The notes under the pieces: model-generated | Seen by the model: only the letters and a program-made list of their open reading frames with translations | Told to the model about the DNA's origin: nothing | The model's database searches: none | Shown here: one piece after another, positions 9,157-57,418 of the stretch | Layout: the number at the start of each line of letters is the position of its first letter | Numbering within the stretch: the stretch's first letter is position 1 | Translations under genes and position numbers: made by a program | Source: Octopus vulgaris | Lineage: Eukaryota | Length of the DNA: 64,000 bases | Direction: 5' to 3' | Assembly: GCA_951406725.2 (NCBI GenBank) | Contig: OX597827.1 | Span: 49,972,001-50,036,000, forward strand

Positions 9157-9632
9157 GCATGAATACAGTTCAGTGTCTTTTATTCATGTGTAAAACTAAA
9201 TGAAACGTTGAGATGTAATACTTTTTGAAGGACAGAGTGTAAAAGAGTTCAAATTACTTCCGCTAGAAAATGAAATCTTTTCCTTATTGCCTGATAAGTG
9301 TTAATGACATATTTATTAATTAATTAATGGTTCAGAATTGACACTGCTCAAGCATACAGAATCTAGTGAAAGAGTTAATTTTCACATTCAATTGGATTCA
9401 GTAATACTCTTGGGAAAGTTACACTTCCTCATTTCCTTTTCACTCAGATTTTGCTGATTTCACTGAGAAGTTATTTAACTTCGTTTTTAGATTTGGTTTG
9501 CAAGATTCTTTATATGAGTTCGTGTGTTGAAGCATATTCTGTTGTGTCTGGGGAGAGTCATTTTCTTTTTGTGCCTTATTATTTAACACACTCACCAGTA
9601 AAATTTTCACTTTTTTTCTTATTTTAATTTTC

Positions 9633-9669
9633 CTAAAATTTTCGTTGCGTCTTGCAACCTTTTCAATAG
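9633..9669 (-). ncRNA. Minimal type-I hammerhead ribozyme motif, U3-A8 variant, in a Penelope-like fragment (~9490-9680)
   Basis: Minus strand: cta TTGAAAA G GTTGC aagac GCAAC GAAA AT TT tag. Helix I cta/tag; helix II 5 bp; helix III palindrome AATT. Confidence 0.5.
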
Positions 9670-9830
9670 TTTTGACTCTCGTTTAATTTATTTTCCTTTT
9701 AGCAGAAAGATATGTTTAGAGATGAAAACTTCGTAGCCCACTAAGTGATATCTAACTTCTAGACAGATATTCACCTCAATATAATCTCTAGAATTCAACA
9801 AGACTATAGTAGTTGTCTGTTATAACATGT

Positions 9831-14232: not shown

Positions 14233-14279
<47 letters not shown>

Positions 14280-14295
14280 AGATGCAGCATGGAAT

Positions 14296-14346
14296 TTTGT
14301 CAGTGAACAGGTCGTGGTTTCAAAATGACGAAAATATTTTGACAAA
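14296..14346 (+). ncRNA. Minimal type-I hammerhead ribozyme motif, G3-C8 variant, in a (TA)n-flanked element (~14278-14430)
   Basis: tttgtca GTGAACA G GTCGT ggtttcaaa ATGAC GAAA ATAT TT tgacaaa. Helix I 7 bp perfect; helix II 5 bp; helix III palindrome AATATT. Confidence 0.65.
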
Positions 14347-14467
14347 TTAGATTTAAATGTGAAAGTGAATCTAACAGTTTTTGCGTGTTTTTAATGGCTT
14401 ATAAACACCTTCTAAGCTGCAATTGTTATATATATATATATATATAGATAGATATATATAGATATGT

Positions 14468-15764: not shown

Positions 15765-16283
15765 TGCCGGTGGCACGTAAAAAGCACCATCCAAATGTGG
15801 CCGATGCCAGTGCTGCCTCGACTGGCTTCCGTGCCAGTGGCACATAAAAGACACCATCCGAACGTGGCCAATGCCAGCGCCGCCTTGACTGGCTTCCGTG
15901 CCAGTGGCACGTAAAAATCACCATCCGAACGTGGCCGATGCCAGTGCCGCCTCGACTGGCTTCCGTGCCAGTGACACGTAAAAAACACCATCCGAACATG
16001 GCCAATGCCAGCGCTGCCTCGACTGGCTTCCGTGCCCATGGTATGTAAAAAGCACCAACCGATCATGGCCGTTGCCAGCCTCGCCTGGCACCTGTGCTGG
16101 TGGCATGTAAAAAGCACCCACAACACTCACAGAGTGGTTGGCGTTAGGAAGGGCATCTAGCTGTAGAAACACTGCTAGATCAGACTGGAGCCTGGTGCAG
16201 CCTTCTGGCTTCCCAGATCCCGGTCGAACCGTCCAACCCATACTAGCATGGAAAACAGACGTTAAACGATGATGATGATGATG
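15765..16283 (+). mobile_element. RTE LINE 3' UTR with four full and further partial 67-bp tandem units
   Basis: Units TGCC(G/A)GTGGCACGTAAAAAGCACCATCCG...GACTGGCTTCCG at about 15765, 15832, 15899 and 15966; (GAT)n tail. Confidence 0.85.
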
Positions 16284-30846: not shown

Positions 30847-31359
30847 GGATCTTTTCGGTTGGACCAGCAGTTTTTAAAAATAATTTCCACGTAACTAAAC
30901 ACTTTTAAACTTCGTATACTGGTAAAACGTGTTTATAAAACATCTTTTTCTCTTGGCTTTATTGAGAAAATTCTATATATGACCCTAGTATCGATCTATT
31001 GCATTTCAATCTGTTTTAGGGTTAGGGTTAGTTAGGGTGAGTTAGGGTTAGGGTTAGGAGTGGGGGGAAGCGTATCTTTTTTTCTTCACAAATGTAAATA
31101 AACCCAATCTGTTTCTTAAACGAGGGACATATTCATACGGCACAGAATGTTTTTTTTATACCTCAATGGACGTCATTGATTGGTTGAAATTGCAGAAATT
31201 GAAGAAAAAAACAAATATCTTACAAACTATAGAATTTTCTAAATATAGCCAAGAGAAAAAGATGTTTTATAAACACATTCTACCAGTATACGAAGTTTAA
31301 AAGAGTTTAGTTACGTGGAAAATTATTTTTAAAAATTGCCGTTCAAACCGAAAAGATCC
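30847..31359. mobile_element. Merlin-like non-autonomous element with ~130-bp inverted arms and an internal TTAGGG-like tract
   Basis: GGATCTTTTCGG...CCGAAAAGATCC; arms 30847-30978 and 31229-31359; TTAGGG-like units at 31016-31060. Confidence 0.75.
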
Positions 31360-44945: not shown

Positions 44946-46409
44946 AAGAAAAATCTTGTTCTTTTGTTGCTGTATTTCAGACACATACACCTAGTCGTAT
45001 ATACCTAATATCTGCAGATGGCTGATGGCTAATGGCTATTAATATCAGGATTGATGGCTTTTACTGATAAACACTTACTTTTTGTTGGCCCAAACCATTT
45101 CATTGTGATTAGATACAGCTCGCTGTCATAAGTAGTGAAAGTTTGGTTGTCAAATACCAGTTATGTGGTGCTTTTAAAATTGGTAAAACTGCTACGACAC
45201 AAATATTCTCTTGTACTAAAACATGAAACAAAGTTCTCGGCAATTTGGTTTGCCTTGCATTTGGTTACAGTGCTTAGTTTTAATTATAGCCAATATATGA
45301 CTGATGATCTGCAATAATTTTTTCCAATTTTAAATGCATCATATTACTGGCATCACGTCACCAAACTTATCTTTGCTGATGAAATATCAACCATTATCCT
45401 CACACACACACACAGATAAACAAGTTGATAAATAAAAATCTCATGTTGATAATTGATGGTCATCGTCATCATCATCATCATCATTTAATGTCCGTTTTCC
45501 ATGCTGACATGGGTTAGATGGTTTGACCAATGCTTGTAAGCTGGAGAGCTGCACTAGGCACCGGTCACCTGTTTTCACTTGATTCCTATGGCTGGATACC
45601 CTTCCTAACTCCAGATGTGTATTTGATAATTTCAGTTGATATCACAGAGCAATCAGACAGCAATATAAATAAGGTACTTCAAATTAATAACTTCTTTAAA
45701 ACAATATTTCAATTGATTCTACCTCTAAATTATCATCATGCAACCTATTCAAGAATATGTATAATCACTGAGACAGGTACAGGACTCAGAAATTTTATTC
45801 TAAATGTGTTGCTTCTGAGGTCAAGATAGGATTCAATTTAAGACAGGGCATTCATCTAGCTCTAAATACATGCCAAACATTGGTTATTTCAGTAATAAAA
45901 AGTAATAATTGCACTCAGTGTAAAACATCTATAATTTAAAATCTGTCATTCTGAACATGTTGCAATCCTGGTGTCAGAATCTGTTTGGGAGCTGTGAATT
46001 ATGAATAATGACATCTCATTTTGCATACACATTGCAATCACTGACAAGTTATGGATCCTGGAAACATTTAAAGCATGAAATCTTCTTACTCCTTAGGAAG
46101 ATACTTGTACACAGTCATCTTGATTATTACTTGCATTTAAGGCACCTCAAGCTTACTGTTATGATGGAGGCAATCCACTGATCCTCCACAAAGAAGGTTG
46201 CTTCTGGTAGACTTAATTTATTGTTTGGTTTAGTATTAGAGTACCTTATGTTTATGAATTTGTTTCGCAAGATTCTTGATATAAAACTGTGTGTTGAAAA
46301 AATATTCTTATTTCAGGATGGTCATTTTTTCCCCCTTGCCAAATAAACACATGCACTATATATTTGTTCTTGTTTATTATTGTTCTTATTTTATCTGATG
46401 TCCATTGCC

Positions 46410-46518
46410 TTGAAACCTTTCGTCACACACCTGTGACCTCTTCAGTGACTCTTCTATCCTCCTGTTCTGTTTAGTCCATTCTGTCTTTCTATGAAGAGAT
46501 CACAGATGTGTGACAAAA
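46410..46518. ncRNA. Inverted pair of hammerhead-like motifs (Penelope-like fragment related to 9490-9680)
   Basis: Minus strand: CTGAAGA G GTCACA ggtg TGTGAC GAAA. Degenerate + copy ATGAAGA G ATCACA gatg TGTGAC AAAA at 46491-46518. Helix I is decayed. Confidence 0.5.
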
Positions 46519-54271: not shown

Positions 54272-54814
54272 CATCATCATCATCGTTTAACGTCCGCTTT
54301 CCATGCTAGCATGGGTTGGATGGTTCAACTGGGGTCTGAAGGCTGCACCAGGCCAGTCAGATCTGGTGGTGTTTCTACAGCTGGATGCCCTTCCTAACGC
54401 CAACCACTCTGTGAGTGTAGAGGGTGCTTTTTATGTGCCACCGACACAGGTGCCAGACGAGGCTGGCGAACGGCCACGCTCGGATGGTGTTTTTTACGTG
54501 CCACCGGCACGGAAGCCAGGCGAGGCTGGCACGGCCACGATCGGATGGTGTTTGTTACGTGCCACCAGCACGGAGGCCAGTTGATGCGGTGCTGGCTATG
54601 GCCACGTTCGGATGGTTCTCTTATGTGTCACCAGCACTGGTACCACAAACTACAAATTCTATTGATGTGGATCGATTTCGATTTGATTCTTTGATTTTCA
54701 TTTTCACTTACCTCAGCAGGTCTTCACAAGTAGAGTTATGTGTCCCAAGAAGGAAGGTATGCACAGGTGGACTGTGCACAGGTAGGAGCCATGGGTTATG
54801 GCCTCACTTGCCCT
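54272..54814 (-). mobile_element. RTE LINE complete 3' UTR
   Basis: Extends from the (CAT)n tail back to the ORF-stop region seen at 28205-28220. Confidence 0.85.
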
Positions 54815-54907: not shown

Positions 54908-55197
54908 TCAGAACTTGATTGAAAAAGGAACTACATCCTAATGTGTTGATGTGTCCTTGGTAAACTCGGCATTAAATTCAGATATGCACACTTCTGAATT
55001 CTAATGTATTAACCCTCCTCCCCCGTTAATTGTGTATATGCAACTTTGTTTTAATTTATTTTTACGCCTGCGTTTGTTAAAGTGCTGAAAAACAAAGGAG
55101 CCGTTGGGTTGCCTAAACGATATCTTAATACAGTTAATTGTAATTAAAAACTTTTATTCCAAATTTTCAATACTACTTCTGAGCCAAGCAGCTACTA

Positions 55198-55236
55198 TGT
55201 GTTGATGAAGAGCAATAATCCTGAAACTAGTCCACA
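55198..55236 (+). ncRNA. Minimal type-I hammerhead motif (U3.G8), GUC triplet
   Basis: tgtg TTGATGA AGAG caataa TCCT GAAA CTAG TC caca; helix III palindrome ACTAGT. Confidence 0.6.
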
Positions 55237-57418
55237 GATGTTGTTTTGTGCTGGAGCGGGGATACTGAATTCCTGGTTCGAAAATATAAAGACAGATAAT
55301 GGGTCAAATAGCCAGCTAGAAACGATGTTTTCTGGGGTCAATAAACAGTAACAACGTCCCTTACAAGACAGCCATTAAATTTTACTTTATATATATATGT
55401 ATATAGTCATGCTTTTGGTATTTATGCGTGCAAACATGACAGATGTGTGTTACTGTGGTTGCAACGTCGCAGGGAAGGCGGGGTCGAGTGGAAATTTTAC
55501 ATTGGATCGAGGTTCAGTGGTGTTAGGAGGATAAAAAAGGAAAAGTATACTTACGTAGACGGATGTGTGTGTGCACACAACCATGTATATGGACGAGCGT
55601 AGGGAGTTACAGGGGATGCATAAGGCTGGAAACTCAGCCTATGTTCTGCATAAGCATCAGAAACCCTATCCTTGGTTGTGGGGCAGCCAGTGATTTGAAG
55701 TTTACAAGGAGGGTGTACCTCTGATGGCAGCAATAAGATAGTTCATATTTCCTGTTGAAAGGCAGGATGTGCCTAGAGGGCAGCTTGTAGGGTTTTAGCA
55801 ATTACAGAGTGGAACGGAAATTGTAGGTGCATGTTCATGCAGTGGGACTGAACTTGAAACCTCATGGTAGGGAAGCAAACTTCCTACCACACAGCCACAC
55901 CAACAAATTTTAGTAAATTTACTAAAATTATGAAAATTAAAATGTAGAAAACATATTTGAGTGAAATGTCTTTATTAATGCTTTAAATGAAAGTTTAGAA
56001 AAATAGAAATATTGACAGGAAGGAACAATATGTAAGTAATAGTGTTATAATATCACTACCAAGATAGCCAGTTAGACTTGCTGCAACATGAGTTTGTAAT
56101 TATCATAAGAAAAATTCTTTTTCTGATAATATAGTAAATGTATTTTGAACACTATCAATGCAGTGAAATGTATATAAATAGCAATGGTAAAACAGCTGGG
56201 TATAATTGGAAGCCTCTTGAATGTATGCTCATTTCTCCTTTCAATTTATATATATATTTTAATTATTAGAACAGTTCAAGGCAGAAAATTAGCAGACTCA
56301 TTAGCATATTTAGTAAAATGGTTAGCTTTATTTTGTCCGTCTTTATGTTCTGAGTTCAAATGCTGCTGAGACTGACTTTGCCTTTCATCCTTTCAGGGTT
56401 GTTAAAATAAGTACTAGTTTAGTACTGGGGTCAACAGTACTAAAGAGAGACTTACCCTCTCCCCCTAACTTGCTGGCTGTATGCCAAAACTGGAAATCAA
56501 TAATGAAATTAGTTATAAATCTTAGCTATAATAATTTATTATAATTATTACTTCACTCATTTCACGAATCTTGAAAAGATAAAAGGCTAAACTGAATCAT
56601 TTAATAGTCGTGGAAATATATACACACACACACACAACATTAAAGGCCTAAATTTTACATAATCCATAGTTTAATTGTTTCATTATGATAAGCATCATGC
56701 AATGCATGACTGAATTAAATAAAATTCAATCAAGTCATGTTATGTTACTGGGTTAAATACATTGAGGCAGAAAAAAAAAAAACTCTGAGGTAATTCAGTG
56801 CTTTGTGATACTAGAGAAAAAAAAAGAAAACTTCTTATTTAACCTCAATAATTATGAGTTTTCTATATCCCCAATACTCCTTAAGAAAGTCCTTATCTTC
56901 ACTAGAAAGATCTCCCCTTTAAGCATGACAGACTGGTATTATTTTAGCTGTTAAGAGTGCAATTCTATCCTGCAATGTTAATTATTGGAATTGAAAATTT
57001 GGATATAATTTTGATATCACTCACTATGAGCTAACCAAACTCAGCTCAGATAATTTAGATGGATTATTTATCTTATTTGAACTAGAAGCAAATTTTTGTG
57101 ATTAGGCAGCAACTACATGATGACTCTCTCTCTCTTCACAATCACCAACTAATCTCTTTCTGAATTAGAAAATCTTTACTTAAATTTTTTTTTTTAAATT
57201 ATGATTTATGTATCATCATTGAAAAAAGTATTAAAATTGAAAAGTTCCTTGATCTGACAGTTTAAAATTTTATTTTTATTACCCCTCTCATAAATATAAC
57301 GAAACTTTATATTACATATATATATATATAAACATCTATTTATCCTAGATCCACAATAACTAGTTTAGCTAGAAAAATTTTAGAATGTTTTTAATCTTTT
57401 AGCTAAGGAAAAAAAAAG

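What the first reader, a model, noticed from the sequence alone, without database searches (positions are those of the whole stretch)
14296..14346. Natural G3-C8 and U3-A8 compensatory swaps of the hammerhead catalytic core
Seen: the core here is GTGAACA inside otherwise complete topology (7-bp helix I). It is TTGAAAA at 9633(-) and 47306(-), TTGATGA at 55198, and canonical CTGANGA elsewhere. Known: C3-G8 is a tertiary Watson-Crick pair in the active HHR, and compensatory double changes partly restore activity. Inference: double changes that preserve exactly this pair indicate selection for catalysis in the progenitor elements. Standard CUGANGA searches would miss them. The U3-A8 cases are weaker because TTGAAAA is common in AT-rich DNA.
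Basis: partly seen in the sequence, partly recalled or inferred. Interest (0 to 1): 0.8.

Follow-up and report, generated by a model that had tools for sequence, protein, structure and literature searches.

The report
Swapped-core hammerhead in octopus retrotransposon
More than 7,000 copies of a Penelope-type jumping gene in this (likely octopus) genome carry a small hammerhead-shaped RNA motif with two paired core letters swapped (G3-C8), while sister families carry C3-G8 or U3-A8, so the pair is likely kept by selection for self-cutting, which is still untested.

Summary
Mostly confirmed. Window 14279-14427 is a solo terminal repeat (pLTR) of a Penelope-like retrotransposon with a minimal type I hammerhead. 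G3-C8 is family-wide: 7,266 of 7,964 genome matches with positions 3 and 8 free, also in full-length RT+GIY-YIG copies. Three related families carry U3-A8 (site "9633") or C3-G8 (two families); the four form one clade, so the pair covaries between families. Site "47306" is also family-wide U3-A8. Site 55198 is U3·G8, a single change, not compensatory. U3-A8 is already published in nature and in Penelope elements; I found G3-C8 only as a laboratory rescue (ten searches; one key paper unavailable). This scan noted G3-C8 before in phages and two single Penelope-like loci. Against strict need for cutting: 240 copies carry a broken G3·G8 pair, under 1% of copies start at the cut site, and the youngest sister family has C at core position 9. 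Cleavage is untested. New variant of a known kind.

The parts
14279..14427 (+). Solo pLTR copy of Penelope-like family F14, without the optional ~60-nt 3' tail, between (TA)n-rich flanks
   Evidence: 92% identity to the family majority over 151 nt; matches both pLTRs of full-length element L126; flanks
14296..14346 (+). Minimal type I hammerhead motif; predicted cut between 14339 and 14340
   Evidence: cut site placed by standard hammerhead numbering (established knowledge)
14303..14309 (+). Core GTGAACA with G3 (14303) and C8 (14308)
   Evidence: 7,266 exact matches of the 21-nt context, control 0
14394..14427 (+). Start codon and first codons of the element's RT-endonuclease reading frame
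   Evidence: same start opens a 200-aa frame in L128 that leads into the RT region
9471..9679 (-). pLTR copy of sister family F9; hammerhead 9629-9676, core TTGAAAA (U3-A8) at 9666-9660
   Evidence: 1,969 matches with 3 and 8 free, first 100 listed: 96 U3-A8, 4 C3·A8; joined to RT/EN remnants in L145 and L153; extent
46250..46465 (-). pLTR copy of sister family FC with canonical core CTGAAGA (C3-G8) at 46445-46439
   Evidence: joined to RT/EN remnants in L253 and L270
47222..47390 (-). Repeat family F47 with hammerhead-like motif, core TTGAAAA (U3-A8) at 47367-47361, long helix II without G10.1-C11.1; parent reading frame not found
   Evidence: core-independent sample: U3 and A8 in 16 of 16 readable cores among 25 loci; no RT hit in its 15 loci tested
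55182..55405 (+). Penelope-linked family F55, core TTGATGA (U3·G8 wobble, uncompensated) at 55202-55208, weak helix II
   Evidence: core-independent sample: U3 in 19 and G8 in 17 of 20 readable cores among 25 loci; two related copies (L370, L372) have C3; RT/EN remnants in L162 and L159/L161

Best explanation
The site is the minimal hammerhead motif in the terminal repeat of a high-copy Penelope-like retrotransposon, and its G3-C8 core is fixed across the family and likely kept by selection for a slow, dimer-dependent self-cut of the element's RNA. Shown: family-wide G3-C8, its place about 55 nt before the start codon of an RT + GIY-YIG frame, and C3-G8 / U3-A8 in sister families. Inferred: two copies of the motif would pair through their palindromic helix III and cut after U17; the swap would keep the 3-8 tertiary pair that positions the 2'-OH of nucleotide 8. 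Most genomic copies, including this one, were likely reverse-transcribed from uncut RNA and now decay neutrally.
For: 7,266 G3-C8 against 227 changed at 3 only, 441 at 8 only and 30 at both; 13.8 doubles expected, and the 7 C3-G8 doubles share the sister-family context (4 of 7 read in full, all family FC). Samples chosen without the core: 17 of 25 readable cores of 30 loci and 27 of 30 are GTGAACA, none C3-G8. L126 has GTGAACA in both pLTRs, 4,261 nt apart, around an RT-EN frame. Tree ((F14),(F9,(FY,FC))) with SH-aLRT 95/99/98 (quick method). In 5 aligned motifs from 4 families the 3-8 pair is paired in 5 of 5 with three pair types, and U4, G5, A6, G10.1-C11.1, G12-A15.1 and U16.1 do not vary. 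Extra base before helix II and palindromic helix III are the published PLE traits (PMC4209133). In deep mutagenesis the G:C swap was the only rescuing double change in this part of the core (PMC9901934), and it partly rescues a PLE hammerhead (PMC11167929).
Against: No cleavage data. Only two independent swap events lie on the four-family tree. 240 copies read G3·G8, 54% of the position-8 singles, against about 30 G-to-C changes at position 3; 3 of 8 insertions have G8 in both arms. F55 spread to at least 351 candidates with U3·G8. FY, the youngest family with intact 1,312-codon frames, has C9 in 42 of 42 motifs. About 36 copies start exactly at the cut site, under 1% of the family, only about 1.5 times the even-spread expectation and confounded by microhomology. 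In the lizard element, hammerhead mutants did not affect insertion in vitro (PMC11167929). A UUU cut triplet is among the poorer ones (recalled, no call).
Confidence: 0.68

Rival explanations
1. The hammerhead fold is selected for a role that needs little or no cutting, such as binding the element's protein, setting the template for reverse transcription or helping translation; cleavage is negligible.
For: Nearly all copies extend through the cut site; G3·G8 copies, U3·G8 in F55 and C9 in FY; low in vitro activity of metazoan minimal hammerheads, with other functions left open by the authors (PMC4209133); cleavage not needed for insertion in vitro (PMC11167929); 5'-UTR hammerheads with translational roles in RNA viruses (PMC13725137, passages).
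Against: The 3-8 pair belongs to the active conformation, and the invariant letters are the catalytic ones (PMC8495972, PMC9901934); a binding platform need not keep exactly this pair.
Confidence: 0.24
2. Founder effect: one master copy picked up two neutral changes that happen to pair, and then amplified; no selection on the pair.
For: All 7,266 copies descend from few masters, so they count as one event; within the family singles and doubles behave as independent decay. Broken pairs did spread in F55 and among G3·G8 copies.
Against: Both events on the tree give Watson-Crick pairs (about 1 in 9 by chance even granted that both sites change; inference), F47 gives a third U-A case, and the other core letters stay fixed while the leader beside them is scrambled.
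Confidence: 0.07
3. Chance look-alike in AT-rich DNA, or private mutations of a CTGANGA family.
For: TTGAAAA occurs 47 times and GTGAACA 8 times in the window; Rfam finds no hammerhead.
Against: 0 hits in 30 shuffles; family-wide in core-independent samples; sits where PLE hammerheads sit; Rfam also misses the canonical copy.
Confidence: 0.01

Closest known systems
Minimal (dimeric) type I hammerheads in the pLTRs of metazoan Penelope-like elements (Cervera and de la Pena 2014, PMC4209133)
   Same: Place in the pLTR, extra base between 9 and 10.1, G10.1-C11.1, palindromic short helix III, many solo and inverted copies. U3-A8 is reported there (about 1,300 hits in Schistosoma; core UUGAAAA in the supplement), and a U3·G8 core is listed for Saccoglossus.
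   Different: No G3-C8 core in the text or in the part of the supplementary alignment I read; here G3-C8 is fixed in a family of more than 7,000 copies with C3-G8 and U3-A8 sister families.
Natural U3-A8 hammerhead core variants (Perreault et al. 2011, PMC3088659)
   Same: Natural compensatory change at the 3-8 pair.
   Different: Only U3-A8 is named in the passages read; G3-C8 needs two transversions.
Engineered C3G/G8C double mutants (PMC11167929, PMC9901934, PMC8495972, PMC3884650)
   Same: Same pair swap; singles are dead or nearly so, the double partly rescues, also in a PLE hammerhead.
   Different: Laboratory constructs; here the swap is the natural, amplified state.
Neptune/Nematis-type endonuclease-bearing Penelope-like elements (PMC8557442)
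   Same: [quoted passage not shown]
   Different: Optional tail is about 60 nt rather than 30-40; clade not placed against reference Neptune or Nematis proteins.

Membership tests
Penelope-like element, C-terminal endonuclease type | One frame with RT followed by GIY-YIG endonuclease | tested here: met
   RT motifs and C-terminal GIY-YIG-like motif read in L095, L126, L128; 114 homologues. Pfam gave no hit on P0001. No fetched F14 copy had the whole frame intact.
Penelope-like element, C-terminal endonuclease type | Direct pLTRs around the frame, inverted truncated 5' copy, optional 3' tail | tested here: met
   L126: pLTRs 4,261 nt apart with an inverted piece upstream; inverted arms and two 3' ends
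Neptune/Nematis clades | CX2-5CxxC linker before the endonuclease | tested here: met
   CX3CX2C in F14, CX4CX2C in FY; feature from PMC8557442
Neptune/Nematis clades | Grouping with reference clade members in an RT tree | not testable with these tools
   No named reference PLE proteins among the homologues
Naiad/Chlamys | Endonuclease N-terminal to RT | tested here: not met
   Endonuclease is C-terminal
PLE minimal type I hammerhead | Helices I and II, G10.1-C11.1, extra base after A9, palindromic 15.2-16.2 region | tested here: met
PLE minimal type I hammerhead | Literal CUGANGA box | tested here: not met
   GUGAACA; the 3-8 Watson-Crick pair is kept
Hammerhead ribozyme | Self-cleavage after N17 | not testable with these tools
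   Only contigs were available; genomic 5' ends give a weak excess at the site
Rfam hammerhead families | Match to a covariance model | tested here: not met
   No hammerhead hit at E up to 1 or 10; the canonical-core copy is missed too
Non-LTR retrozyme | Non-coding head-to-tail repeats of a short unit | tested here: not met
   Copies are dispersed or inverted and tie to a coding element; no such array at the site

The most novel reading that the evidence does not exclude
One octopus Penelope clade has fixed three Watson-Crick states of the hammerhead's 3-8 tertiary pair, the G3-C8 ribozyme cuts in vivo, and the roughly 240 G3·G8 copies were copied from templates with a broken pair: a genomic record of the intermediate on the path C3-G8 to G3·G8 to G3-C8, tolerated because cutting is dispensable per event or is supplied by a partner in the dimer.
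Probability: 0.2. Interest if true: 0.72.

Novelty: new variant of a known kind. Interest (0 to 1): 0.5.

Why it matters
The 3-8 pair is central to the active hammerhead structure, and G3-C8 turned up in my searches only as an engineered rescue. A family fixed on it, with C3-G8 and U3-A8 sisters on one tree, is natural covariation evidence that the cryptic Penelope hammerheads are held in the active fold. Their function is an open question, since they cut slowly and seem dispensable in vitro. The four sister motifs and the G3·G8 class are a ready-made set for that test. Descriptors should let 3-8 be any Watson-Crick pair: over 9,000 motifs in two families of this genome would be missed by a CUGANGA pattern.

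Tried and rejected
Rfam: no hammerhead hit in the window or at either site. PF00078 search of the genome returned 150 other RTs and did not help. Pfam on P0001: no family. Naiad reading, suggested by (TA)n targets: rejected, the endonuclease is C-terminal. Eleven copies with a 3-nt core deletion looked like a dead-ribozyme subfamily; the 7 compared share long flanks, so they are segmental duplicates. In one search the rows L189 and L190 were labelled G3C8 too early: L189 has that deletion and L190 reads GTGAAAA; both are F14 by protein, and the G3-C8 state of F14 rests on L095, L126, L196 and L197. A core-independent DNA search for F9 returned nothing, so a pattern with 3 and 8 free was used. 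Cut-site test: raw counts 58, 28 and 206 for apparent starts at +1, +2, +3; by eye I dropped 15 helix-I microhomology joints and 7 mutated copies from +1, about 10 from +2, and kept about 10 of the first 100 listed at +3 (most are a subfamily with a 2-nt insertion), giving about 36, 18, 21; chi-square p = 0.01 against an even spread, but many +1 copies have an inverted arm that runs past the cut site, so this is weak. G3·G8 copies: no private diagnostic site, divergence 4.2% against 3.2%, p = 0.36. Sequencing runs: no RNA holder listed; 4 of 24 runs laid, all contigs, so no start, end or strand; loose-end consensus in all 4 shows the GTGAACA core. No RT hit for F47. Lunse et al. 2017 (PMC5785218) is not held. 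A search of the Perreault supplements for five 7-letter cores found none, not even UUGAAAA, so it says nothing.

Full report
Observation. The motif is there as described. Helix I is 14296-14302 with 14340-14346, the core GTGAACA is 14303-14309, an extra G follows, helix II (5 bp, G10.1-C11.1) closes before GAAA at 14330-14333, helix III is a 6-nt palindrome, and U17 is 14339. A strict descriptor with positions 3, 7 and 8 free finds only this site in the window and nothing in 30 block-shuffled copies; a relaxed one adds the 9666(-) site, against 0.03 hits per shuffle. The folded monomer forms helices I and II but not III. Rfam reports no hammerhead here nor at the canonical-core copy at 46445.

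It is a repeat family, and G3-C8 is its consensus. The window lies in G000, 2.8 Gb; the site has 2,649 first-look candidates. Two samples did not use the core: of 30 loci found with the downstream part, 25 had a readable core, 17 were GTGAACA, 23 had G3, 21 had C8 and none was C3-G8 (one of the 30 is the window's own copy); of 30 loci found with an upstream pattern (568 matches), 27 were GTGAACA. Genome-wide, in a fixed 21-nt context: 7,266 G3-C8, 227 changed at 3 only, 441 at 8 only, 30 at both. Independent decay predicts 13.8 doubles. Seven doubles are C3-G8; the 4 of them that were fetched, and 2 other doubles among the 20 fetched, belong to another family, FC. So copies decay independently at 3 and 8 after insertion, and selection can only be read between master lineages.

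The parent is a Penelope-like element. [quoted passage not shown] L126 shows pLTR, frame, pLTR with GTGAACA in both repeats, 4,261 nt apart, and an inverted piece upstream; L128 shows the frame starting inside the pLTR. The start codon matches window 14394, about 55 nt behind the predicted cut. Inverted arms, an optional tail of about 60 nt and (TA)n flanks fit the published PLE layout (PMC8557442, passages). The linker points to the Neptune/Nematis type; I had no reference proteins to place it. The best homologue (58%) carries the label Octopus vulgaris and a 160-aa part of it matches G000 at 100%, so the host is likely an octopus. No F14 copy that I fetched had the whole frame intact.

Sister families carry the other pairs. 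F9 (window 9471-9679, minus) has U3-A8: 1,969 matches with 3 and 8 free, 96 of the first 100 U3-A8 and 4 C3·A8. FC (window 46250-46465, minus) has C3-G8, 264 exact matches (the pattern fixed the core). FY, very young with intact 1,312-codon frames, has C3-G8 in 41 of 42 motifs found through the protein. All tie to homologous RT-EN frames and share the N-terminal peptide. A tree of 99 C-terminal regions gives ((F14),(F9,(FY,FC))) with SH-aLRT 95, 99 and 98 (quick method, no bootstrap, outgroup hammerheads unknown; two F14 rows were mislabelled for core state, see Tried and rejected). In an alignment of 5 motifs from these 4 families the 3-8 pair is standard in 5 of 5 with three pair types, 3 of 5 helix II pairs also covary, and the other core letters except A9 are invariant (5 rows, related, so the shuffle counts are not probabilities). 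The leader behind the motif aligns within the shuffled range in 5 of 6 family pairs. That is at least two double substitutions, both to a Watson-Crick pair. C3-G8 as the ancestral state is inferred from its prevalence in other animals' PLEs (PMC4209133 supplement), not from my tree.

The other two sites. F47 (core 47367-47361) is U3-A8 in 16 of 16 readable cores among 25 loci chosen without the core; its parent frame was not found. F55 (core 55202-55208) has U3 in 19 and G8 in 17 of 20 readable cores among 25 loci, a weak helix II, and two related copies with C3; it ties to RT/EN remnants.

Results against a strict need for cutting. 240 F14 copies read G3·G8, 54% of the position-8 singles, while G-to-C at position 3 is 13 of the first 100 of 227. 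Of 30 sampled, 28 are of the older type and none of the youngest; they share no private site; the inverted arm has G8 in 3 of 8 insertions and C8 in 5; their divergence is not clearly higher. Templates with a broken pair or a mutation hot spot could both explain this. FY has C instead of A at position 9 in 42 of 42 motifs. About 36 copies begin exactly at the cut site against about 18 and 21 at the next two bases, counted by eye after the removals listed under Tried and rejected; that is under 1% of the family and only a weak excess. Public runs gave contigs only, so expression and cleavage could not be read.

Mechanism. Shown: position, architecture, fixation, covariation between families. 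Inferred from the literature: the motif would fold as a dimer through the palindromic helix III and cut slowly after U17, as minimal PLE hammerheads do (PMC4209133, main text parts 1-2 of 4). The swap keeps the tertiary pair; in a PLE hammerhead the singles are dead and the double partly rescues, while insertion in vitro does not need the cut and uses uncut RNA from an internal start (PMC11167929, passages). That matches what the genome shows: solo copies that run from the tail through the intact motif to a common 5' end about 25 nt upstream of the core. I put selection on the active fold with real but low cleavage at 0.68, a mainly non-cutting role at 0.24, founder drift at 0.07.

Known and new. 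Natural U3-A8 is published (PMC3088659, passages; PMC4209133, text and supplement file 2 part 2 of 3 plus passages, where UUGAAAA and a U3·G8 core appear and no G3-C8 core does; its file 1 could not be searched). G3-C8 appeared only as an engineered change (PMC9901934, PMC8495972, PMC3884650, PMC11167929; passages). Ten full-text searches and passages of PMC6765202, PMC6155905, PMC13725137, PMC6962438 and bioRxiv 10.64898/2026.07.22.740005 showed no natural case. The library lacks most subscription papers, figures are not held, and Lunse et al. 2017, a survey of PLE hammerhead variants, was unavailable (I saw only its citation line), so the claim of novelty is provisional. Earlier notes of this scan report G3-C8 in phages and in two single Penelope-like loci; I did not test them. 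What this locus adds is fixation in thousands of copies and covariation on a tree.

Verdict. A real feature: a new variant of a known kind, well supported as sequence and untested as a catalyst. Interest 0.5.

Noticed in passing
L274:1131-1180 (G000:C17; also L275, L276, L219-L248): The youngest PLE family (FY, intact 1,312-codon frames with a long asparagine-rich insert) has C instead of the conserved A at hammerhead position 9 in 42 of 42 motifs.
   Followed up: partly
L398-L427: 240 F14 copies with G3·G8, far more than the reciprocal change at position 3; on several older backgrounds, both arms alike in 3 of 8 insertions. Unexplained.
   Followed up: partly
window 14279-14283; L061-L090: Many F14 copies begin at the same point about 25 nt before the core; longer copies have a branch-point and acceptor-like stretch just upstream (568 exact matches), and 12 of 21 copies have G rather than the genomic pyrimidine before that point. 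Either a spliced leader or a start site with a copied cap.
   Followed up: partly
listing, e.g. G000:C1:765023: An F14 subfamily with a 2-nt insertion in the 3' strand of helix I makes up most of 206 matches.
   Followed up: no
L185-L189, L192, L193, L337-L347: Eleven copies of one F14 insertion with a 3-nt core deletion and an internal deletion of the frame, spread by segmental duplication, several near contig ends.
   Followed up: yes
window 48087(-), 34281(+), 46685(-): Further CTGANGA...GAAA motifs with palindromic or near-palindromic helix III, probably decayed pLTRs of other families; families not checked.
   Followed up: no
window 15765-16086 and 54423-54580: Tandem arrays of related GC-rich units of 67 and 61 nt, 4.8 and 2.5 copies.
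   Followed up: no
L093:1005-2900: A second, different GIY-YIG-like PLE remnant lies beside F14 copies.
   Followed up: no
window 31016-31058: Short degenerate TTAGGG-type array.
   Followed up: no
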